Shown: piece by piece, positions 16,578 through 63,480 of the stretch
Layout: each line of letters begins with the position of its first letter
How positions within the stretch are numbered: position 1 is the first letter of the stretch
Assembly (NCBI RefSeq): GCF_055900595.2
Contig: NZ_CM148325.1
Direction: 5' to 3' (one strand)
DNA length: 64,000 bases
Made by a program: the position numbers and the translations under genes
The notes under the pieces: generated by a model
What the model was told of the DNA's origin: nothing
The model's database searches: none
Seen by the model: only the letters and a program-made list of their open reading frames with translations

Positions 16578-17714
16578 ATGGATCTATTGATTGTTTTAAC
16601 TTACGTGGCGCTGGCGTGGGCGGTCTTTAAAATCTTCCGCATTCCGGTAAATCAGTGGACGCTGGCGACGGCGGCGCTGGGAGGCGTGTTTCTGGTGAGT
16701 GGTTTGATTTTGTTGATGAACTACAACCACCCTTACACTTTTACCGCACAGAAAGCGGTGATTGCTATTCCCATCACGCCACAGGTGACGGGGATCGTGA
16801 CTGAAGTCACTGACAAGAATAATCAGCTCATTCAGAAGGGCGAGGTGCTTTTTAAGCTCGACCCGGTACGTTATCAGGCGCGAGTCGACAGACTTCAGGC
16901 TGACCTGATGACGGCGACGCATAATATAAAGACACTGCGCGCGCAGCTCACTGAAGCGCAAGCCAATACCACCCAGGTTTCAGCGGAGCGTGACCGCTTG
17001 TTTAAAAATTATCAACGTTACCTGAAAGGCAGCCAAGCGGCGGTAAATCCGTTCTCAGAACGTGATATCGACGATGCGCGGCAGAATTTTCTCGCGCAGG
17101 ATGCGCTGGTGAAAGGCTCGGTGGCGGAACAGGCGCAAATCCAGAGCCAGCTCGACAGTATGGTTAACGGTGAGCAGTCGCAGATTGTCAGCTTAAGGGC
17201 GCAGCTTACCGAAGCGAAATATAACCTTGAGCAGACCGTCATTCGCGCGCCGAGCAATGGCTACGTCACTCAGGTGCTGATCCGCCCAGGTACATACGCA
17301 GCTGCCTTGCCGTTGCGTCCGGTAATGGTTTTCATCCCTGAGCAAAAACGGCAAATTGTCGCCCAATTTCGGCAAAACTCGCTGTTACGTCTGAAACCCG
17401 GCGATGATGCGGAAGTGGTGTTTAACGCGCTACCTGGGCAGGTGTTCCACGGCAAACTGACTAGTATTTTACCTGTCGTGCCAGGCGGTTCGTATCAGGC
17501 GCAAGGGGTATTGCAATCATTAACGGTCGTGCCCGGCACGGACGGTGTGCTGGGAACCATTGAACTGGACCCTAACGATGATATCGATGCTTTACCCGAC
17601 GGCATCTACGCCCAGGTGGCAGTTTACTCCGACCATTTCAGCCATGTTTCGGTGATGCGGAAGGTGCTGCTAAGAATGACCAGTTGGATGCATTATCTTT
17701 ATTTGGATCATTGA
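16578..17714 (+). CDS. yibH: HlyD-family membrane-fusion (periplasmic adaptor) protein
   Basis: 378-aa ORF with N-terminal TM helix, coiled-coil region and beta-barrel domain; starts 2 bp after yibI; paralog of yiaV. Confidence 0.85.
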
Positions 17715-21912: not shown

Positions 21913-23032
21913 ATGGCAGCTTCAACCTTTTTTATTCCTTCCGTGAATGTTATCGGCGCTGATTCATTGAATGATGCAATGAATATGATGGCAGATTATG
22001 GATTTACCCGTACCTTAATTGTCACCGACAATATGTTAACGAAATTGGGTATGGCGGGTGATGTGCAAAAAGCACTGGAAGAACGCAATATTTTTAGCGT
22101 TATTTATGATGGCACCCAACCTAACCCCACCACGGAAAACGTCGCTGCAGGTTTGAAATTACTTAAAGAAAATAATTGCGATAGCGTGATTTCCTTAGGC
22201 GGTGGTTCTCCACACGACTGCGCAAAAGGTATTGCGCTGGTTGCAGCCAACGGCGGTGACATCCGCGATTATGAAGGCGTTGACCGCTCTGCAAAACCGC
22301 AGTTGCCGATGATCGCCATCAACACCACGGCGGGTACGGCATCAGAAATGACCCGTTTTTGCATCATCACCGATGAAGCACGTCACTCCGCTGCTTTCTG
22401 TCAATGACTCCTCGCTGATGATCGGTATGCCGAAGTCACTGACCGCTGCAACGGGTATGGATGCCTTAACGCACGCTATCGAAGCGTATGTGTCTATTGC
22501 CGCCACGCCGATCACCGACGCTTGCGCACTGAAAGCGGTGACTATGATTGCCGAAAACCTGCCCTTAGCCGTTGAAGATGGCAGCAATGAGAAAGCGCGC
22601 GAAGCAATGGCTTACGCTCAGTTCCTCGCGGGTATGGCGTTCAACAATGCGTCTCTGGGTTATGTTCATGCGATGGCGCACCAGTTAGGTGGTTTCTACA
22701 ATCTGCCGCACGGTGTATGTAACGCCGTTCTGCTGCCGCACGTTCAGGTATTCAACAGTAAAGTCGCTGCTGCACGTTTGCGTGACTGCGCTGCCGCGAT
22801 GGGTGTTAACGTGACAGGTAAAAACGACGCGGAAGGTGCAGAAGCCTGCATCAATGCCATCCGTGAACTGGCGAAGAAAGTGAATATCCCGGCAGGCTTG
22901 CGTGACCTGAACGTGAAAGAAGAAGATTTCGCGGTACTTGCGACCAATGCCCTGAAAGATGCCTGCGGCTTTACTAACCCGATTCAGGCAACTCACGAAG
23001 AAATTGTGGCGATTTATCGCGCGGCGATGTAA
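21913..23032 (+). pseudogene. yiaY: Iron-containing alcohol dehydrogenase YiaY, split by a frameshift near 22375-22405
   Basis: Two ORFs in different frames (21913..22407, 164 aa; 22373..23032, 219 aa) together cover one Fe-ADH; about 10 residues between ...CIITDEARH and [32 protein letters not shown] are missing relative to family members such as FucO. Confidence 0.7.
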
Positions 23033-23232: not shown

Positions 23233-24771
23233 ATGACCAATAATCCCCCTTCAGCACAGATTAAGCCCGGCGAGTATGGTTTCCCCCTCAAGTTAAAAGC
23301 CCGCTACGACAACTTTATTGGCGGCGAATGGGTAGCCCCTGCCGACGGCGAGTATTACCAGAACCTGACGCCGGTGACCGGGCAGCTACTGTGCGAAGTG
23401 GCGTCTTCGGGCAAACGAGACATCGATCTGGCGCTGGATGCTGCGCATAAAGTGAAAGATAAATGGGCGCATACTTCGGTGCAGGATCGCGCGGCGATTC
23501 TGTTTAAGATTGCCGATCGAATGGAGCAGAACCTCGAACTTTTAGCGACGGCTGAAACCTGGGATAACGGCAAACCCATTCGCGAAACCAGTGCTGCTGA
23601 TGTACCGCTGGCGATTGACCACTTCCGCTATTTCGCCTCGTGTATTCGGGCGCAGGAAGGCGGTATTAGCGAAGTGGATAGCGAAACCGTGGCTTATCAC
23701 TTCCACGAACCGTTAGGCGTGGTGGGGCAGATTATCCCGTGGAACTTCCCGCTGTTGATGGCGAGCTGGAAAATGGCTCCCGCGCTGGCGGCGGGCAACT
23801 GTGTGGTGCTGAAACCCGCACGTCTTACCCCGCTTTCTGTACTGCTGCTAATGGAAATCGTTGGTGATTTACTGCCGCCGGGCGTGGTGAACGTGGTTAA
23901 CGGTGCTGGTGGGGAAATTGGCGAATATCTGGCGACCTCGAAACGCATCGCTAAAGTGGCGTTTACCGGCTCAACGGAAGTGGGCCAACAAATTATGCAA
24001 TACGCTACGCAAAACATTATTCCGGTGACGCTGGAGCTGGGCGGCAAATCGCCAAATATCTTCTTTGCTGATGTGATGGATGAAGAAGATGCCTTTTTCG
24101 ATAAAGCGCTGGAAGGCTTTGCACTGTTTGCCTTTAACCAGGGCGAAGTTTGCACCTGTCCAAGCCGTGCTTTAGTGCAGGAGTCTATCTACGAACGCTT
24201 TATGGAACGCGCCATCCGCCGTGTCGAAAGCATTCGTAGCGGTAACCCGCTCGACAGCGTGACGCAAATGGGCGCGCAGGTTTCTCACGGGCAATTGGAA
24301 ACCATCCTTAACTACATTGATATCGGTAAAAAAGAGGGCGCAGACGTGCTCACCGGTGGGCGGCGCAAGCTGCTGGAAGGCGAACTGAAAGACGGCTACT
24401 ACCTCGAACCGACGATTCTGTTTGGTCAGAACAATATGCGCGTGTTCCAGGAAGAAATTTTTGGTCCGGTGCTGGCGGTAACCACCTTCAAAACGATGGA
24501 TGAGGCGCTGGAGCTGGCGAACGACACGCAATATGGTCTGGGGGCTGGTGTCTGGAGCCGCAACGGTAATCTGGCCTATAAGATGGGGCGCGGCATTCAG
24601 GCCGGGCGAGTGTGGACCAACTGTTATCACGCTTACCCGGCACATGCGGCGTTTGGTGGCTATAAGCAGTCGGGTATCGGGCGCGAAACCCATAAGATGA
24701 TGCTTGAGCATTACCAGCAAACCAAGTGCCTGCTGGTGAGCTACTCAGATAAACCGTTGGGGCTGTTCTGA
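23233..24771 (+). CDS. aldB: Aldehyde dehydrogenase B
   Basis: ORF 23059..24771; start taken at [17 protein letters not shown] (512 aa) with SD aaggagacg upstream. Confidence 0.93.
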
Positions 24772-24783
24772 TGTAAGAAGCTG

Positions 24784-24830
24784 GTCGCATCGGGTATTCA
24801 TTGCCTGATGCGACGCTTTCGCGTTTTACC
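24784..24830 (+). terminator. REP-like hairpin and T-rich tail downstream of aldB
   Basis: gtcgcatc ... gatgcgac inverted repeat followed by gctttcgcgtttt. Confidence 0.55.
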
Positions 24831-25000
24831 AATTCAAATGTCTACGTCTTGAATGACTGAATATTGATTGAACTTAATTACGAGTCTCCTCGCATCTTTT
24901 CAACAAGTTACTGCACACCGTTATTCTTCTTCCGAACGGCATTCCTGAGTCAACTTTATCTCCCTGACGGCCCATATAAATCGCGCTATCGTGATTGTTA

Positions 25001-25031
25001 TTGCTAAGTGTGTGTGTATCGTGTGTATAAT
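25001..25031 (+). promoter_or_regulatory. Putative sigma70 promoter of hicAB with direct repeats
   Basis: -35 ttgcta (25001..25006) and -10 tataat (25026..25031); the direct repeat gtgtgtat x2 overlaps the -10 region. Confidence 0.5.
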
Positions 25032-25048
25032 CATGGAAGGGCAGGGAT

Positions 25049-25234
25049 GTGAAAAGTGCAGACGTGATCGCCATCCTGAAGCAGCATGGCTGGGAACATA
25101 TTCGAACCCGTGGTAGTCATCATCAGTTCCGCCACCCTGTCCATCCGGGTCTGGTGACGGTTCCGCACCCTAAAAAAGATATTAAGCCCGGTACGCTGGC
25201 GCAAATTGGGCGTCAGGCTGGTTTAACATTTTAA
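25049..25234 (+). CDS. hicA: HicA-family toxin (61 aa)
   Basis: GTG start; small basic protein with RGSHH and PHP-KDIKPGTL-I-RQAGL motifs; 16 bp upstream of the antitoxin gene. Confidence 0.8.
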   Translation: MKSADVIAILKQHGWEHIRTRGSHHQFRHPVHPGLVTVPHPKKDIKPGTLAQIGRQAGLTF

Positions 25235-25250
25235 AATTTCAGGAGGCAAT

Positions 25251-25661
25251 ATGTTTTATCCCGCCTATATCCACAGTGATCCTGACGGCAGCGCCAGCGG
25301 TTTTTTCCCTGATGTTCCAGGCTGTTATTTTGCTGGTGATACGCTGGACAACGCTTTCCAGGATGCGCGAAGTGCACTGGTCGCGCACTTCGAAACCTTA
25401 TGCGAGATGAATGAAGAGTTGCCGCTTCCAGGCTCTGTGGAAACACATCTGGTCCAGCGTGCGCAGGACTTTATTGGCGGGCAATGGTTGCTGGTGGATA
25501 TCAATATGAATCAGTTCGAAGGTCGGGCTGAACGTATCAATATTACGATGCCGAAAAGATTACTGAACAAGATTGATACCTACGTGCGCAATAACCCAGA
25601 CTACGCCAACAGAAGTGCGTTTCTGGCGGAAGCTGCCCGGCGTGTATTGCCGGGCGTTTAA
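25251..25661 (+). CDS. hicB: HicB-family antitoxin with C-terminal ribbon-helix-helix DNA-binding domain (136 aa)
   Basis: Strong SD aggagg 7 nt upstream; C-terminal RHH-like segment NRSAFLAEAARRVL. Confidence 0.8.
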   Translation: MFYPAYIHSDPDGSASGFFPDVPGCYFAGDTLDNAFQDARSALVAHFETLCEMNEELPLPGSVETHLVQRAQDFIGGQWLLVDINMNQFEGRAERINITMPKRLLNKIDTYVRNNPDYANRSAFLAEAARRVLPGV

Positions 25662-26041
25662 TCTCGCGTTTCGATGGTGAGCGGGCGGACCAGGCTGTAC
25701 AGCCACAGACCAAAACAAGCGATGGTGCCAATCACCACGGTGAGGAACACACTGACTGACAGGCCTGCAAGCAATCCCGCAGGCAGGGCCAGCAGGCCGT
25801 GGATCACGGTGTCGTTCCATCTCACCTGATCGTAGCCAAACATGCCTAAAACGCCGCAAACCAGACCGTAAATCACCATTGGTGTTCCGAGGCCAATCAG
25901 CAATAAACGGTAGATAATTGAAGGTTTAATACGCTTTATCTGTACTGTGGATGTTTTACTGGGGTTATTCATTAGTTTGGTCAATAGTTCCATTATTTCA
26001 ATATGATAAACCTCGACCTGTTGAAAAGCCAGGTAGCACAC
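25658..26041 (-). CDS. Small hydrophobic membrane protein of unknown function (about 111-127 aa)
   Basis: ORF with two or three predicted TM helices; start uncertain (GTG at 26041 or ATG at 25993); 3' end overlaps the hicB stop by 4 bp. Confidence 0.45.
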   Translation of the reverse strand: MCYLAFQQVEVYHIEIMELLTKLMNNPSKTSTVQIKRIKPSIIYRLLLIGLGTPMVIYGLVCGVLGMFGYDQVRWNDTVIHGLLALPAGLLAGLSVSVFLTVVIGTIACFGLWLYSLVRPLTIETRD

Positions 26042-26154
26042 TTCAGAAAGTATATAAAAAACAATATGTCGTTATATAAATAAGGAAATTGCACTGCATC
26101 ATGGCATTTCATAATATGCGTTAATTGTTCTTTTTTATATTCTCTGAGGGAAAT

Positions 26155-26478
26155 ATGTTCCTGGACTATTTTGCACTGGGAGTGCTTATTTTTGTATTTC
26201 TGGTGATATTCTATGGGATTATTATTTTACATGATATTCCCTACCTGATTGCTAAAAAACGTAATCATCCTCATGCCGACGCCATTCATGTTGCTGGTTG
26301 GGTGAGTCTTTTTACGCTGCATGTTATCTGGCCATTTTTGTGGATTTGGGCCACGCTTTACCGCCCGGAGCGGGGATGGGGAATGCAAAACCATGACTCC
26401 TCCGTTGTGCAACTACAACAGCGTATTGCCGGGCTGGAGAAACAGCTCGCCGACATCAAATCCTCTTCTGCCGAGTAA
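26155..26478 (+). CDS. yiaW: DUF3302-family small inner-membrane protein
   Basis: ORF 26125..26478; start taken at MFLDYFALG with SD gaggg upstream (107 aa); paralog of yibI. Confidence 0.85.
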
Positions 26479-26483
26479 TACTT

Positions 26484-27620
26484 ATGGATTTACTGATTAT
26501 TTTGACCTATGTGGCTTTCGCATGGGCAATGTTTAAGATCTTCAAAATTCCTGTAAATAAATGGACCATTCCCACCGCGGCCCTGGGTGGCATATTTATT
26601 GTCAGCGGTCTAATTCTGTTAATGAACTATAACCATCCGTATACCTTTAAAGCGCAAAAAGCGGTTATTTCTATTCCTGTTGTCCCGCAGGTGACAGGCG
26701 TGGTGATCGAAGTGACGGACAAGAAAAATACGCTGATTAAAAAAGGTGAGGTGCTATTTCGACTGGACCCGACGCGTTATCAGGCGCGGGTGGATCGGCT
26801 GATGGCGGATATCGTTACCGCAGAACATAAACAGCGGGCGTTGGGCGCAGAGTTAGATGAGATGGCGGCGAATACTCAGCAGGCAAAGGCCACGCGGGAT
26901 AAATTCGCTAAAGAGTACCAGCGTTACGCACGCGGCAGCCAGGCGAAAGTAAACCCGTTTTCAGAACGCGATATTGATGTGGCGCGGCAAAATTATCTGG
27001 CGCAGGAAGCCTCCGTAAAGTCATCGGCGGCGGAACAAAAACAGATCCAGAGCCAGCTGGATAGCCTGGTGTTGGGTGAACATTCTCAAATCGCCAGCCT
27101 GAAAGCGCAGCTCGCGGAAGCAAAATATAACCTTGAGCAGACGATAGTGCGTGCGCCGAGCGATGGTTATGTGACCCAAGTGCTGATTCGTCCGGGTACC
27201 TATGCCGCATCGCTGCCGCTACGTCCTGTGATGGTGTTTATACCCGATCAGAAACGACAAATTGTGGCGCAGTTCCGTCAGAACTCCTTGCTGCGACTGG
27301 CTCCCGGCGATGATGCGGAAGTGGTGTTTAATGCTCTGCCAGGTAAGGTATTCAGCGGTAAGCTGGCAGCCATTAGCCCAGCTGTTCCCGGCGGAGCTTA
27401 TCAGTCGACCGGCACCTTACAGACGTTAAACACAGCACCGGGTTCAGATGGCGTTATCGCGACCATTGAACTGGATGAGCACACTGAGTTGAGCGCTTTA
27501 CCAGACGGTATTTACGCCCAGGTGGCGGTTTACTCTGATCATTTCAGCCATGTCTCGGTGATGCGCAAAGTGCTGTTACGCATGACCAGTTGGGTGCATT
27601 ACCTTTATCTCGATCATTAA
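26484..27620 (+). CDS. yiaV: HlyD-family membrane-fusion protein
   Basis: 378-aa ORF; paralog of yibH; starts 5 bp after yiaW. Confidence 0.85.
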
Positions 27621-29469: not shown

Positions 29470-29600
29470 TCGGTGCGGCTGGCCTACGCTCTCGCACTGA
29501 CCTTCAGGCTTGATAAGACGCGTTAAGCGTCGCATCAGGCAATGTGCACCCTACGTTGGATGCGGCGCGAGCGCCTTATCCAACCTACGGATGGCAATGC
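29470..29600. repeat. REP element pair between yiaT and the GH127 gene
   Basis: gcctacgctctcgcactgaccttcaggcttgataagacgcgttaagcgtcgcatcaggca ... ggatgcggcgcgagcgccttatccaacctacgg. Confidence 0.7.
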
Positions 29601-31555
29601 TTTTCCTCATTCACCCAGATCCGCATTTCGCCTTCACCCCGGTTAGCCCAGCTAAACCACGGGATAAATGTCAGAGTTTGCGGCTGGCGTTTGGCTGGCG
29701 CGCTGTCGTAATGCCACAGCGGTTGCTGCTCTGGATAGCTCTGTTCATACCGGTAACCCGGTGCCTGGATTAAGATCTTATGGCTGAACAATCCCTTACC
29801 TTCAAATGTCGTAAATGGCGCATCGGTGGGCAGCCACAGATTATGCAGTGACTCGCCGTTGTCGGCCTGTTCCAGGCAATACACCAGCGGGCCGCGCTGA
29901 ATCGCCACTTTTCCGGCGACGTGACGCACCAGCGGGTTACCGTAAACGCGACGTACCGGCATTGGCAACGTCAGATTCAGCGTGTCGCCCTCCTGCCATT
30001 CGCGGGTAATGTGCAAATACCCTTTACGAATATCCTGCTCGACCTCTTCCCCATTCAATGTAATCTGCGGCTGTGTGCACCAGTCCGGCAGACGTAAAGC
30101 CAGCGTATGACGCACCGGCTGGGGCGATTCAACCGCAATTGTCACCTGTTCCTGCCACGGATAGTTTCCGCTAACCCGCAGACGCAGCGTGCCATTTTCT
30201 ACCGGCACTTCCATGCTGTTTCCTGCGTAGATGTTGATATACAACGCATCTTCACGCGGCGTGTAGAGATAATGACCAATCGAGGTTAGCACGCGGGCGA
30301 TATTTGGCGGACAACAAGCGCAACCAAACCAACGCTGGCGGATCGGCTTAACGTGATCGTAGATATGGTTGAATTTCAGCGATTTTGGATGTACTTCCAG
30401 CGGATTCACATAGAAGAAATGTTTGCCATCCAGCGCCATGCCGCCGAGCACGGTGTTGTACAGTGCGCGCTCCATCACATCGGCATATTGACTGTCGCCT
30501 TCCATTTCCAGCATTCGCCGGGCGAACATCATCAGGCCGATGGAAGCACAGCTTTCGGCGTATACCGTGTCATTCGGCAGATCGTAATCGCTGCTGAACG
30601 CTTCGCCGCTGCTTTGTGAGCCAATGCCGCCGGTAATATATAACTGACGCTGGGCCATATTGTTCCACAGCCGCAGGCAGTCCTGACGCTTGCTTTCATC
30701 GTGACTTAAACGCGCGAGATGCGCGACGCCGGTCATCAGGTAGACAAAACGTACCGCGTGACCAATGGCGGTTTGCTGCTGTGCGATGGGCAAATGTGCC
30801 TGGCTGTAGGCTTTGTCTTTCACCATCCACGCCGGGCCGTAGGTGTGCCAGTGCGAGGTCTGCCCGCGCTTTTCATATTCCTGGTCGTAATAGTGCGGTT
30901 GCGCACCACGCTGTTCGACAAAATAGTTCGTCAGCGCCAGGTAGCGCGGCTCTTCGGTCACTTCATACAGGCGCATTAGTGCCAGTTCAATTTCCGGGTG
31001 ACCAGGATAACCGTGTAACTTACTTTCACCTGGACCAAATACGCTGTCGATATGATCGGCCAGACGGCAAACCACTTCCAGCAAGCGCCGCTTGCCCGTG
31101 GCCTGGAAGAAGGCGACTCCGGCTTCAATCAGATGACCGGCGCAGTAAAGTTCATGACACTCCGCCAGATTGCTCCAGCGTTCTTTGGGCGCTTTTACCG
31201 TAAAGTAAGTATTGAGATAGCCATCTTCGCACTGGGCGGAAGCGACCAGTTCGATTACCTCGTCAGCAGTTTTTTCCAGTTCGGCATCCGGCTTCTGGCA
31301 CAGCGACCAGGCTACCGCTTCCAGCCATTTGGCGACGTCGCTGTCCTGAAACACCATCCCGTAAAATTCACCGTCTTGCAGTCCTGCGGCAATGCGAAAG
31401 TTTTCAATCGCATGGCTGGGTTCCGCTTCTGGGATACGATCGTTCAAGGCATCCCACTGATAAGGAATCACCACGTCGCGGACCAGTTGTTGGTACTGAC
31501 CGAGGAACGGATCGCTGACCGTCAGTTTATGCAGATCGACTTCCGAAATGTTCAT
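29585..31555 (-). CDS. Glycoside hydrolase family 127-like (DUF1680) protein, candidate beta-L-arabinofuranosidase (about 656 aa)
   Basis: ORF 29585..31603; start taken at MNISEVDL with SD aaggag 8 nt upstream; large soluble protein with Cys-rich C-terminal part (FGCACCPPN); family assignment from recalled family features. Confidence 0.7.
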   Translation of the reverse strand: MNISEVDLHKLTVSDPFLGQYQQLVRDVVIPYQWDALNDRIPEAEPSHAIENFRIAAGLQDGEFYGMVFQDSDVAKWLEAVAWSLCQKPDAELEKTADEVIELVASAQCEDGYLNTYFTVKAPKERWSNLAECHELYCAGHLIEAGVAFFQATGKRRLLEVVCRLADHIDSVFGPGESKLHGYPGHPEIELALMRLYEVTEEPRYLALTNYFVEQRGAQPHYYDQEYEKRGQTSHWHTYGPAWMVKDKAYSQAHLPIAQQQTAIGHAVRFVYLMTGVAHLARLSHDESKRQDCLRLWNNMAQRQLYITGGIGSQSSGEAFSSDYDLPNDTVYAESCASIGLMMFARRMLEMEGDSQYADVMERALYNTVLGGMALDGKHFFYVNPLEVHPKSLKFNHIYDHVKPIRQRWFGCACCPPNIARVLTSIGHYLYTPREDALYINIYAGNSMEVPVENGTLRLRVSGNYPWQEQVTIAVESPQPVRHTLALRLPDWCTQPQITLNGEEVEQDIRKGYLHITREWQEGDTLNLTLPMPVRRVYGNPLVRHVAGKVAIQRGPLVYCLEQADNGESLHNLWLPTDAPFTTFEGKGLFSHKILIQAPGYRYEQSYPEQQPLWHYDSAPAKRQPQTLTFIPWFSWANRGEGEMRIWVNEEKHCHP

Positions 31556-43759: not shown

Positions 43760-43860
43760 GCCGGATGCGGCTTAAACGCCTTATCCGGCCTACAAATTAT
43801 TCCAAATTCAATATATTGCAGAAATGATGTAGGCCTGATAAGCGTAGCGCATCAGGCAAT
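43760..43860. repeat. REP element pair between ysaA and avtA
   Basis: gccggatgcggcttaaacgccttatccggcctaca ... tgtaggcctgataagcgtagcgcatcaggca. Confidence 0.8.
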
Positions 43861-62447: not shown

Positions 62448-62725
62448 TCGCTAAATAATAGAGCAACCTTTAATAATCTTCTGCTGAATAAAGATTGTCT
62501 CATATATTAATTTTATGAGATTTTTTTAGGATTATATCAAGGAGAAGAAACGAACTTATTAAACTAGAATAGCTGCGGGTGCTTGAGACTGTTTGTCTCA
62601 GGTATTCACCGAAAGGCAGACAGAGAAAAGCCCCACCTGACTATAAATCAAAGTGAGGCTACCCTATGCCTGAACACCATAAGGTTAGCCTCTTACTCGT
62701 TGGAAATCAACACAGGAGGCTGGGA

Positions 62726-62878
62726 ATGCCGCAGAAATATAGATTACTTTCTTTAATAGTGATTTGTTGCACGCTTTTATTTTTCACCTGGATGATAAGA
62801 GATTCACTGTGTGAATTGCATATTAAACAGGGGAGTTATGAGCTGGCGGCATTTTTAGCCTGCAATTTGAAAGAGTAA
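62726..62878 (+). CDS. hokA: Hok-family small membrane toxin (50 aa); in-frame upstream extension from 62666 corresponds to mokA
   Basis: MPQKYRLLSLIVICCTLLFFTWMIRDSLCELHIKQGSYELAAFLACNLKE is a typical Hok toxin; SD aggagg at 62714..62719; the 70-aa ORF from 62666 is the Mok-type overlapping frame. Confidence 0.8.
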   Translation: MPQKYRLLSLIVICCTLLFFTWMIRDSLCELHIKQGSYELAAFLACNLKE

Positions 62879-63003: not shown

Positions 63004-63040
63004 AACAAATAAAAAAATCCCCGCCAAATGGCAGGGATCT
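63004..63040 (-). terminator. Intrinsic terminator of cspA
   Basis: Minus-strand hairpin (atccctgcc/ggcggggat) followed by a long U-run. Confidence 0.75.
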
Positions 63041-63065
63041 TAGATTCTGTGCTTTTAAGCAGAGA

Positions 63066-63278
63066 TTACAGGCTGGTTACGTTACCAGCTGCCGGGCCTT
63101 TAGCGCCGCTTTCGATGGTGAAGGACACTTTCTGACCTTCGTCCAGAGATTTGTAACCATCGTTCTGGATAGCAGAGAAGTGTACGAACACGTCTTTAGA
63201 GCCATCGTCAGGAGTGATGAAGCCGAAGCCTTTGTCAGCGTTGAACCATTTTACGATACCAGTCATTTTACCGGACAT
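63066..63278 (-). CDS. cspA: Major cold-shock protein CspA
   Basis: 70-aa [73 protein letters not shown]. Confidence 0.97.
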
Positions 63279-63480
63279 AGTGTATTACCTTTAATAATTA
63301 AGTGTGCCTTTCGGCGATATGGCGTGCTTTACAGATTTTGAAGCGTTAAAGGAATGTGCACTACGAGGGGTATCAACGATAACTCTTGAAGGGACTTGCC
63401 TTACTACACTGCTTTAATGGTCTGTACGTCAAACCGTTGATGTGCATTAAGCCACGCATTGGCGGGTGATGCAACAATTA
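63279..63480 (-). promoter_or_regulatory. cspA long 5' UTR (about 160 nt, cold-box region) and promoter with AT-rich UP element
   Basis: Minus-strand sequence ttgcat(-35)...cttaat(-10)...acggtttgacgtacagaccattaaagcagtgtagtaaggcaag... matches the cspA leader as recalled. Confidence 0.8.

What the first reader, a model, noticed from the sequence alone, without database searches (positions are those of the whole stretch)
24985..26041. hicA/hicB toxin-antitoxin pair plus a convergent small membrane protein between aldB and yiaW
A 61-aa HicA-type toxin and a 136-aa HicB-type antitoxin with a C-terminal RHH domain form a compact operon behind a plausible sigma70 promoter. The promoter carries the direct repeat gtgtgtat x2 across the -10 region, a possible autoregulatory operator. 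A hydrophobic ORF of about 111-127 aa converges on hicB and overlaps its stop by 4 bp. The K-12 hicAB locus is elsewhere on the chromosome, so this looks like an additional or strain-specific module; I am unsure whether K-12 has only remnants here.
Basis: partly seen in the sequence, partly recalled or inferred. Interest (0 to 1): 0.65.

Follow-up and report, generated by a model that had tools for sequence, protein, structure and literature searches.

The report
Ordinary HicAB toxin-antitoxin pair, ancestral locus
The window carries an intact, already-annotated HicA/HicB toxin-antitoxin pair that most E. coli, including K-12, have deleted down to a scar; the small membrane-protein gene next to it is an unrelated old neighbour.

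Summary
hicA (25049-25234, 61 aa) and hicB (25251-25661, 136 aa) give full-length Pfam HicA_toxin and HicB_lk_antitox matches. [quoted passage not shown] RefSeq already names the identical proteins HicA/HicB family.

The pair is intact in 505 of 5426 complete E. coli genomes. K-12 keeps only a remnant of the hicB 3' end. Orthologues at 76-80% HicB identity occupy the same selB/aldB/GH127 neighbourhood in Enterobacter, Pseudescherichia and Trabulsiella. So this is an old chromosomal resident lost by most E. coli, not a recent gain.

The HicB DNA-reading strand is also near-invariant. That makes the repeat a credible HicB operator.

The convergent ORF is a real 104-aa membrane protein, DUF3566-like by predicted fold. 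It lies between yiaW and aldB in other enterics that lack hicAB, so it is not part of the module. It is intact in only 27 of 5426 E. coli genomes.

Verdict: the reading is correct, but the element is of a known kind and of low interest.

The parts
24984..24995 (+). Second conserved upstream block (CGCTATCGTGAT; consensus CGCTAnnGTGAT in the chromosomal clade). It shares the core TATCGTG with the operator. Its role is unknown.
   Evidence: Partly invariant columns in the cross-genus alignment; direct repeat TATCGTG at 24987 and 25017.
25001..25006 (+). -35-like hexamer TTGCTA, 19 nt upstream of the -10. Weak and not conserved.
   Evidence: Read from the sequence. Not called by the promoter scan. 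It reads TCGCTA or TCACTA in other E. coli, with a 2-nt spacer difference in E50.
25012..25031 (+). Putative HicB operator: tandem heptads TGTGTAT (25013-19) and TGTGTAT (25022-28). The second overlaps the perfect -10 TATAAT (25026-31).
   Evidence: The 8-mer occurs only at these two positions in the window. The core is invariant across 5 genera and in three prophage-borne relatives. In two prophage copies it is one arm of a perfect 16-nt inverted repeat flanking the -35.
25049..25234 (+). hicA: 61-aa HicA-family toxin (putative ribosome-independent RNase) with a GTG start and a weak Shine-Dalgarno sequence.
   Evidence: Pfam PF07927, 2.1e-23, model positions 2-58 of 58. PDB 4c26 and 6g26, 1e-16, with Gly22 and His24 aligned. 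pN/pS 0.20-0.48. RefSeq WP_000833473.1.
25241..25246 (+). Strong Shine-Dalgarno sequence AGGAGG for hicB, 4 nt before the ATG.
   Evidence: Read from the sequence.
25251..25661 (+). hicB: 136-aa antitoxin with an N-terminal partial RNase H-like domain (residues 1 to about 88) and a C-terminal RHH DNA-binding domain (about 94-133).
   Evidence: Pfam PF15919, 9e-36, full length. PDB 6g1n 3e-25 and 4p78 2e-21. AF2 model with pLDDT 84 whose best Foldseek matches are 6g26 and 4p7d. RefSeq WP_000499744.1.
25634..25656 (.). G+C-rich hairpin inside the last codons of hicB, just beyond the stop of the convergent ORF. Possibly a weak terminator or transcript stabiliser.
   Evidence: Terminator-like scan: 9 pairs, 7 of them G-C, tail TTTAATCTCG. 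Fold -22.7 kcal/mol, z = -2.2.
25658..25972 (-). Neighbour, not part of the module: a 104-aa small membrane protein (TM helix 17-44, hairpin loop, long helix 59-95), DUF3566-like by fold, divergent from yiaW.
   Evidence: Orthologues of 104-105 aa at 52-63% identity in the same yiaW-aldB position without hicAB. pN/pS 0.24-0.41 with saturated synonymous sites. Profile search found 272 representative clusters. AF2 pLDDT 84.6. Foldseek hits to DUF3566 proteins at TM about 0.8. No Pfam hit.
24784..24814 (+). REP-like hairpin after aldB. It marks the left boundary of the variable segment; homology with K-12 ends at 24828.
   Evidence: Inverted repeat I2; breakpoints against K-12.

Best explanation
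This is a classical type II toxin-antitoxin operon of the HicAB family, with the toxin gene first and an RHH-type antitoxin (Class 4 in Gerdes 2024).

Shown here:
- Both genes are intact, under purifying selection and full-length family members.
- The toxin keeps the Gly22-Ser-His24 motif.
- The antitoxin has the partial RNase H-like N-domain and an RHH C-domain.
- A tandem TGTGTAT repeat over the -10 and the HicB ribbon strand are both conserved across genera and in prophage copies.

Inferred from characterised relatives:
- HicA is a ribosome-independent RNase.
- HicB masks its active site through the N-domain.
- HicB oligomers bind the tandem heptads with their RHH dimers, occlude the -10 and repress the operon.
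- The GTG start and weak Shine-Dalgarno sequence of hicA, against the AGGAGG and ATG of hicB, bias translation toward the antitoxin.

History of the locus:
- The pair is an old chromosomal resident of the selB-aldB-GH127 neighbourhood of Enterobacteriaceae.
- The window and a cryptic Escherichia clade keep the complete arrangement aldB-hicAB-orf104-yiaWVUT.
- Most E. coli, including K-12, share one deletion breakpoint at 25578 that removed hicA and most of hicB. A later 156-bp in-frame deletion then removed the middle of orf104.
- The membrane ORF is a separate ancestral gene.
For: - Family: Pfam HicA_toxin 2.1e-23 and HicB_lk_antitox 9.1e-36, both full length.
- Solved relatives: BpsHicA 1.2e-16, 31 of 59 residues identical, with query Gly22 and His24 in register with the residues required for BpsHicA toxicity (PMC11594946). 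BpsHicB 2.8e-25 and YpHicB3 1.6e-21, aligned through the RHH domain.
- Fold: the HicB model has pLDDT 84 and its N-domain matches 6g1c at TM 0.83-0.86.
- Selection: pN/pS is 0.18-0.48 for both genes against seven relatives. HicA has the same RefSeq protein accession (WP_000833473.1) in three E. coli locus configurations.
- Operator: the heptad core is invariant in 8 promoters whose flanks have diverged. It forms a 16-nt inverted repeat in two prophage copies. The ribbon strand GRxERIN(I/V)T.P.RLL is near-invariant in the same set. RHH HicBs of Y. pestis and B. pseudomallei bind sites that overlap the -10 (PMC11594946).
- Synteny and loss.
Against: - No experiment was done. Toxicity, RNase activity, neutralisation and DNA binding are all inferred.
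- The -35 is weak (19-nt spacer) and not conserved, and the transcription start is unknown. Whether transcripts from this promoter translate hicA cannot be decided. In K-12 the repressed promoter yields hicB-only mRNA (PMC7167474).
- The conserved element is a direct repeat here, whereas published HicB operators are described as palindromic (PMC11594946, PMC10865869).
- NCBIfam has no model that matches either protein.
- Loss in about 90% of E. coli shows the module is dispensable.
Confidence: 0.85

Rival explanations
1. The module's biological role is anti-phage defence by abortive infection. It would sit in a small variable defence spot between aldB and GH127 that also holds a solitary HSDR_N nuclease gene in other strains. 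This concerns role rather than mechanism and is compatible with the best explanation.
For: - HicA genes are often found in defence islands, and a defence role has been proposed (PMC10865869).
- An HSDR_N 'type I restriction endonuclease' gene neighbours hicAB in E. coli E50, Enterobacter and Trabulsiella, and occupies the same interval in a hicAB-less relative.
- Relatives at 54-55% HicB identity are prophage cargo genes next to lysis cassettes. Both proteins hit PHROG toxin and HicB families.
Against: - No PADLOC model matches.
- There are no mobile-element genes at the locus.
- Long-term syntenic vertical residence is atypical of fast-turnover defence islands.
- No phage data exist.
Confidence: 0.3
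2. The pair is an inert relic on its way to loss. It would be a domesticated or attenuated toxin with a HicB that has at most a regulatory role, so there is no active toxin-antitoxin behaviour.
For: - It has been lost in about 90% of E. coli, by at least two different deletion routes.
- The -35 is weak and variable.
- One orthologue (Pseudescherichia) carries Glu at the Gly22 position needed for BpsHicA toxicity.
Against: - In the window both ORFs are intact, and Gly22 and His24 are retained.
- pN/pS is about 0.2 against other genera with saturated synonymous sites.
- The operator and the DNA-reading strand are strictly conserved.
Confidence: 0.1
3. The convergent membrane ORF is a third component of the module, for example a membrane effector or sensor coupled through the 4-bp overlap and antisense transcription.
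For: - There is a 4-bp overlap of convergent stop codons, with a hairpin at the junction.
- The same overlap occurs in Escherichia sp. E1V33.
Against: - Orthologues of the ORF sit between yiaW and aldB without hicAB in other enterics and in 12 E. coli genomes.
- hicAB occurs without the ORF in about 490 E. coli genomes and in Enterobacter, Pseudescherichia, Trabulsiella, Serratia and prophages.
Confidence: 0.03
4. The GTGTGTAT repeat is only low-complexity (GT)n sequence around a -10 box and has no operator function.
For: - The region is GT-rich and shows (GT)n length variation among strains.
- The 8-mer count in the window is near expectation.
Against: - The 7+7 nt core is invariant across 8 promoters, including prophage copies at 54-55% HicB identity, while the flanks are unalignable.
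- An inverted second copy is present in two prophage promoters.
- The RHH strand is co-conserved.
Confidence: 0.1

Closest known systems
Burkholderia pseudomallei HicAB (PDB 6G26, 6G1N, 4C26)
   Same: - Toxin-first operon.
- HicA is 31 of 59 residues identical, with Gly22 and His24 at the same numbering.
- HicB has the same two-domain build with a C-terminal RHH domain, E = 2.8e-25, aligned to residue 133.
- The BpsHicB binding site overlaps the -10 (PMC11594946).
   Different: - About 35% HicB identity in the structural alignment.
- The Bps operator is described as a single palindrome. Here the conserved element is a tandem direct repeat.
- Nothing about the E. coli pair has been tested experimentally.
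Yersinia pestis HicA3-HicB3 (PDB 4P78, 4P7D)
   Same: - RHH-type HicB, E = 1.6e-21.
- It has two operators, and the main one overlaps the -10 (PMC11594946). This resembles the two-arm arrangement seen in the prophage relatives.
   Different: - HicA3 is only distantly similar (E = 1e-4).
- hicA3 and hicB3 are separated by a 174-bp spacer, against 16 nt here.
- The ribbon strand differs (KFNLTM against RINITM), so the operator sequence probably differs. I could not read the primary paper to compare.
E. coli K-12 HicAB (b4532/b1438, PDB 6HPB)
   Same: - Same superfamily and gene order.
- The HicB N-domain is 33% identical over 66 residues.
- A repressor-controlled promoter lies close to the hicA ribosome-binding site.
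   Different: - Different locus (1.509 Mb).
- K-12 HicB has an HTH, not an RHH, DNA-binding domain (PMC11594946).
- The two HicA proteins are not significantly similar.
- It is not an orthologue.
Prophage-borne hicAB cargo genes of Yersinia, Shimwellia and Klebsiella (phrog_353 / phrog_497)
   Same: - 54-55% HicB identity.
- Identical heptad operator core and RHH strand.
- Non-ATG start for hicA.
   Different: - Located beside phage lysis cassettes.
- A canonical -35 at 16-17 nt.
- A second, inverted operator arm in two of the three copies.
- TTG rather than GTG start.
DUF3566 small membrane proteins (relevant only to the neighbouring 104-aa ORF)
   Same: Predicted fold matches many DUF3566-annotated AlphaFold models at TM 0.75-0.86 and 22-40% identity. 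Size is similar, about 100 aa.
   Different: - No Pfam match to DUF3566 or any other family at a significant E-value.
- The function of both is unknown.

Membership tests
HicA toxin family (Pfam PF07927) | Full-length match to the family profile; small protein of about 60 aa | tested here: met
   E = 2.1e-23, query residues 4-59 on model positions 2-58 of 58; phrog_353 'toxin' 8.7e-23.
HicA toxin family (Pfam PF07927) | Conserved catalytic His, with the preceding Gly (Gly22 and His24 in BpsHicA) | tested here: met
   Query R21-G22-S23-H24-H25 aligns in register with BpsHicA (4c26 has Ala at position 24). Requirement for these residues is from PMC11594946. GSHHQF is conserved in 7 of 8 relatives.
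HicA toxin family (Pfam PF07927) | dsRBD-like alpha-beta-beta-beta-alpha fold | not tested
   No model was made for HicA. The fold is inferred from sequence homology to solved HicA.
HicA toxin family (Pfam PF07927) | RNase activity and growth arrest, neutralised by the cognate HicB | not testable with these tools
   Needs expression and RNA-cleavage assays.
HicB antitoxin, RHH subclass (Class 4 hicAB) | Full-length match to the HicB profile, encoded immediately downstream of hicA | tested here: met
   PF15919, 9.1e-36, residues 3-129 on model positions 1-123 of 123; 16-nt intergenic gap.
HicB antitoxin, RHH subclass (Class 4 hicAB) | N-terminal partial RNase H-like fold | tested here: met
   The AF2 model has strands 2-9, 15-18 and 26-29, helices 32-52 and 63-74, and strand 78-83, with pLDDT above 85. 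Foldseek matches 6g1c and 4p78 N-domains at TM 0.78-0.86 and rmsd 1.8-2.5 A.
HicB antitoxin, RHH subclass (Class 4 hicAB) | C-terminal ribbon-helix-helix DNA-binding domain | tested here: met
   Alignment to the RHH domains of BpsHicB and YpHicB3 runs through residues 92-133. The model shows helices 102-114 and 121-132. The ribbon segment (residues 93-95) has low confidence, as expected for a monomer model.
HicB antitoxin, RHH subclass (Class 4 hicAB) | Autorepression by binding an operator in the hicA promoter | not testable with these tools
   Comparative support only: an invariant heptad repeat over the -10 and an invariant ribbon strand.
Orthologue of the E. coli K-12 hicAB locus | Same locus, high identity, HTH-type HicB | tested here: not met
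   Different locus. HicB is 33% identical over 66 aa only, and HicA shows no significant similarity. The domain here is RHH, not HTH.
Three-component module including the membrane ORF | Co-occurrence of the three genes across genomes | tested here: not met
   Each occurs without the other in many genomes.
DUF3566 (neighbouring ORF) | Match to the Pfam profile | tested here: not met
   No significant Pfam hit for the ORF or for 24 relatives. Only fold-level similarity was found.
Known anti-phage defence systems (PADLOC) | Match to a PADLOC model | tested here: not met
   No families matched any of the three proteins.

The most novel reading that the evidence does not exclude
The chromosomal module and the prophage-borne hicAB copies of Enterobacterales share an identical operator core (TGTGTAT-N2-TGTGTAT) and a near-invariant HicB DNA-reading strand. 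They could therefore form one cross-talking specificity group. In that case the old chromosomal copy would act as an anti-addiction or immunity module that represses or neutralises incoming prophage hicAB, or the reverse. Its loss from most E. coli would then change how those prophages behave.
Probability: 0.15. Interest if true: 0.45.

Novelty: already known. Interest (0 to 1): 0.15.

Why it matters
It matters little beyond bookkeeping. It adds one uncharacterised HicAB orthologue group to the E. coli accessory toxin-antitoxin repertoire.

Three points may be useful:
- The unannotated 544-bp aldB-yiaW spacer of K-12 is shown to be the scar of a lost toxin-antitoxin module plus a truncated membrane-protein gene.
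- There is a sharply defined candidate operator (a tandem heptad over the -10) and a matching conserved RHH strand. Together they form a ready-made test case for how RHH-type HicB proteins read DNA.
- There is a small conserved membrane-protein family of about 100 aa, without a Pfam model, that is inactivated in about 99.5% of complete E. coli genomes.

Tried and rejected
- NCBIfam gave no hit for any of the three proteins, and PADLOC gave none.
The only promoter-like hit (25978-26007) is unrelated.
- I tested whether the imperfect inverted repeat 24961-75 / 25033-47 could sequester the hicA Shine-Dalgarno sequence in a longer transcript. The fold of 24950-25065 is no better than shuffles (z = 0.14), so I dropped the idea.
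- I looked by eye for a CRP or CRP-S half-site pair in the conserved upstream block and found no convincing or conserved match.
- Rfam at gathering thresholds finds no RNA family in 24772-26154.
- I looked for a conserved neighbourhood of distant relatives of the 104-aa ORF, for example with DUF3302/HlyD genes. The two contexts examined were unrelated, so no functional link to yiaWV can be claimed.
- True plasmid and phage records hold no close copy. All are below 60% identity, and the two plasmid-collection hits at 99% or more are mislabelled 4.9-Mb chromosomes.
- Three primary papers were not held: Y. pestis HicB3 operators, B. pseudomallei HicB-DNA binding, and hicAB of ExPEC strain PPECC42. 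I therefore could not compare published operator sequences. I also could not tell whether the PPECC42 hicAB deletion study concerned this locus.
- I did not assign the hicAB-positive genomes to phylogroups.
Full report
**What is there**

The interval between aldB (stop at 24771) and yiaW (start at 26155) is 1383 bp and holds three ORFs.

- hicA runs from 25049 to 25234 on the + strand, has a GTG start and encodes 61 aa.
- hicB runs from 25251 to 25661 on the + strand, has an ATG start and encodes 136 aa. It begins 16 nt after hicA, behind AGGAGG at 25241-25246.
- A minus-strand ORF ends at 25658, so its stop overlaps the hicB stop within TTAA (25658-25661).

A complete E. coli genome (MFDS1022581) is 100% identical over this interval. 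RefSeq annotates it there as 'type II toxin-antitoxin system HicA family toxin' (WP_000833473.1), 'HicB family antitoxin' (WP_000499744.1) and a 104-aa hypothetical protein (WP_001064341.1). The element is therefore real and already catalogued at family level.

**Family identity**

- HicA matches Pfam HicA_toxin over the whole model (2.1e-23).
- HicB matches HicB_lk_antitox over the whole model (9.1e-36).
- Among solved structures, HicA is closest to B. pseudomallei HicA (1.2e-16; 31 of 59 residues identical). Query Gly22 and His24 align with the two residues reported as required for BpsHicA toxicity (PMC11594946).
- HicB is closest to BpsHicB (2.8e-25) and Y. pestis HicB3 (1.6e-21). Both alignments run through the C-terminal RHH domain.
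- An AlphaFold2 model of HicB (pLDDT 84) shows a beta-beta-beta-alpha-alpha-beta N-domain and two C-terminal helices. Its best Foldseek matches are 6G26, 4P7D and 6G1C, with N-domain TM 0.83-0.86.
- In the 14-class scheme of Gerdes (PMC10865869) this is a Class 4 hicAB (RHH-type HicB).
- The K-12 hicAB (b4532/b1438 at 1.509 Mb) is a different subtype. The two HicB share 33% identity over the first 66 residues only, and the two HicA are not significantly similar. K-12 HicB carries an HTH domain (PMC11594946).

**Integrity and selection**

Against orthologues in Enterobacter, Pseudescherichia, Trabulsiella and Serratia, and against three prophage-borne relatives, synonymous sites are saturated (pS 0.7-0.9). 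pN/pS is 0.18-0.48 for both genes, and GSHHQF is kept in all but one relative. HicA carries the same RefSeq protein accession in three different E. coli locus configurations. All hicA genes in this group start with GTG or TTG, whereas hicB has a strong Shine-Dalgarno sequence and an ATG start. This fits the usual translational bias toward the antitoxin, but that reading is an inference.

**Promoter and operator**

GTGTGTAT occurs only twice in the window, at 25012-19 and 25021-28, and the second copy overlaps a perfect TATAAT at 25026-31. The -35-like TTGCTA lies 19 nt upstream. The consensus scan does not call it. It changes to TCGCTA or TCACTA in other E. coli, and E50 has a spacer 2 nt shorter.

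The key evidence is comparative.

- In alignments of hicA upstream regions from five genera, the only solid block is GTGTGTAT-NN-TGTGTA.
- The core TGTGTAT-NN-TGTGTA is also invariant in prophage-borne copies from Yersinia, Shimwellia and Klebsiella, whose HicB is only 54-55% identical.
- In the Yersinia and Klebsiella prophage copies the motif is the right arm of a perfect 16-nt inverted repeat. That repeat brackets a canonical -35.
- The HicB ribbon segment GRxERIN(I/V)T.P.RLL is near-invariant in the same eight proteins.
- Y. pestis HicB3 and BpsHicB are reported to bind sites that overlap the -10 (PMC11594946).

I therefore rate the repeat as a probable HicB operator. This is inferred and has not been shown experimentally. 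A second conserved block, CGCTAnnGTGAT (24984-24995), is unexplained.

**Distribution and history**

- Intact hicAB (at least 80% of 25000-25661) is present in 505 of 5426 complete E. coli genomes. It is always chromosomal and single copy.
- About 3400 further genomes match only 49 bp of the hicB 3' end.
- K-12 has a 544-bp interval with no annotated feature. It aligns to the window only at 24673-24828, 25578-25699 (84%) and 25856-26252. The space where hicAB would be is occupied by REP sequences.
- At least five configurations exist:
  - aldB-hicAB-orf104-yiaWVUT, as in the window (15 genomes);
  - aldB-HSDR_N-hicAB-GH127 (E50);
  - aldB-hicAB-GH127 (KTa008);
  - aldB-scar-intact orf104-yiaW (EC26);
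  - the K-12 type.
- EC26 and K-12 share the same breakpoint at 25578. This points to one ancestral hicAB deletion, followed by a 156-bp in-frame deletion in orf104 between the imperfect direct repeats ACCAGGCTGTACA and ACCAGACCGTAAA.
- The complete arrangement, with the same 4-bp overlap, also occurs in the cryptic-clade strain Escherichia sp. E1V33 at 92% identity.
- Orthologues at 76-80% HicB identity lie in the same selB/aldB/yiaT/GH127 neighbourhood in Enterobacter, Pseudescherichia and Trabulsiella.
- No true plasmid or phage record holds a copy above 60% identity.

The module is therefore an old vertical resident that most E. coli have lost, not a recent acquisition.

**The convergent ORF**

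- Only Escherichia sequences extend to 127 aa, and the 111-aa ATG is not conserved. Relatives in other genera are 104-105 aa and start at the position of Met24. RefSeq also aa.
- These relatives (52-63% identity) lie between yiaW and aldB without hicAB.
- pN is 0.18-0.32 against saturated pS of about 0.77, so it is a real protein-coding gene.
- A profile search found 272 representative clusters at E below 1e-3. Most of the 150 listed are about 90-125 aa.
- No Pfam family matches.
- The AF2 model (pLDDT 84.6) has one TM helix (17-44), a short hairpin and a long helix (59-95). It resembles many DUF3566-annotated models at TM about 0.8.
- Distant members have unrelated neighbours.
- The ORF is intact in only 27 of 5426 E. 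coli genomes.
- It is an independent ancestral neighbour of unknown function, not a third component of the module.

**Verdict**

The element is a standard, database-annotated HicAB pair of the RHH subtype. The additions are a well-supported candidate operator, evidence that the locus is ancestral and mostly lost, the identification of the K-12 scar, and the separation of the membrane ORF from the module. Novelty is low. All functional statements (toxicity, RNase activity, repression) remain inferences from characterised relatives.

Noticed in passing
window 21913-23032 (deletion at about 22373): yiaY (L-threonine dehydrogenase) is disrupted in this window. A 32-bp deletion relative to strain MFDS1022581 shifts the frame and splits the gene into ORFs 21913-22407 and 22373-23032.
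   Followed up: partly
window 29585-31555 (-); K-12 NC_000913 3750918-3751109: The GH127 glycoside hydrolase gene beyond yiaT is intact here. It matches the NCBIfam aceric acid hydrolase model below its cutoff. The K-12 pseudogene ysaD aligns to its 3' part (window 29693-29797, 87%), so ysaD is a remnant of this gene.
   Followed up: partly
L003 1120-2199; L011 4412-5488; L017 4420-5499; L008 5640-6713: A solitary gene of about 358 aa with an HSDR_N domain ('type I restriction endonuclease') recurs next to hicAB or in the same aldB-side interval in other E. coli and other genera. It is absent from the window.
   Followed up: no
L013 3800-3985 (Pseudescherichia vulneris hicA): This orthologue has Glu in place of Gly22, a residue reported as needed for BpsHicA toxicity, so the toxin may be attenuated.
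   Followed up: no
window 25007-25019 and the same site in L003, L023, L030: There is a GT-dinucleotide length and sequence polymorphism between the -35-like hexamer and the first heptad. It changes the spacer by 2 nt among E. coli strains.
   Followed up: partly
window 4552-9363 (-): A 1603-aa ORF between lldP and mtlR matches trimeric autotransporter adhesin models (Ata, Vomp, EmaA, YadA), all below their curated cutoffs.
   Followed up: no
window 16578-17714 (+) versus 26484-27620 (+): The ORF at 16578-17714 is paralogous to yiaV (74% DNA identity over 17028-17712) and is intact in the window. The matching gene in MFDS1022581 is interrupted by an IS21-like element.
   Followed up: no
window 62577-62728 (+), 63011-63438 (-), 29507-29585 (-), 43794-43836 (+): Rfam matches above gathering score: sok antitoxin RNA (hokA locus), the cspA thermoregulator, naRNA4 and ES036.
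   Followed up: no
window 24784-24828; K-12 interval NC_000913 3754429-3754972: A REP-like hairpin follows aldB. In K-12 and EC26, additional REP-like copies occupy the place of the deleted hicA and 5' hicB.
   Followed up: partly
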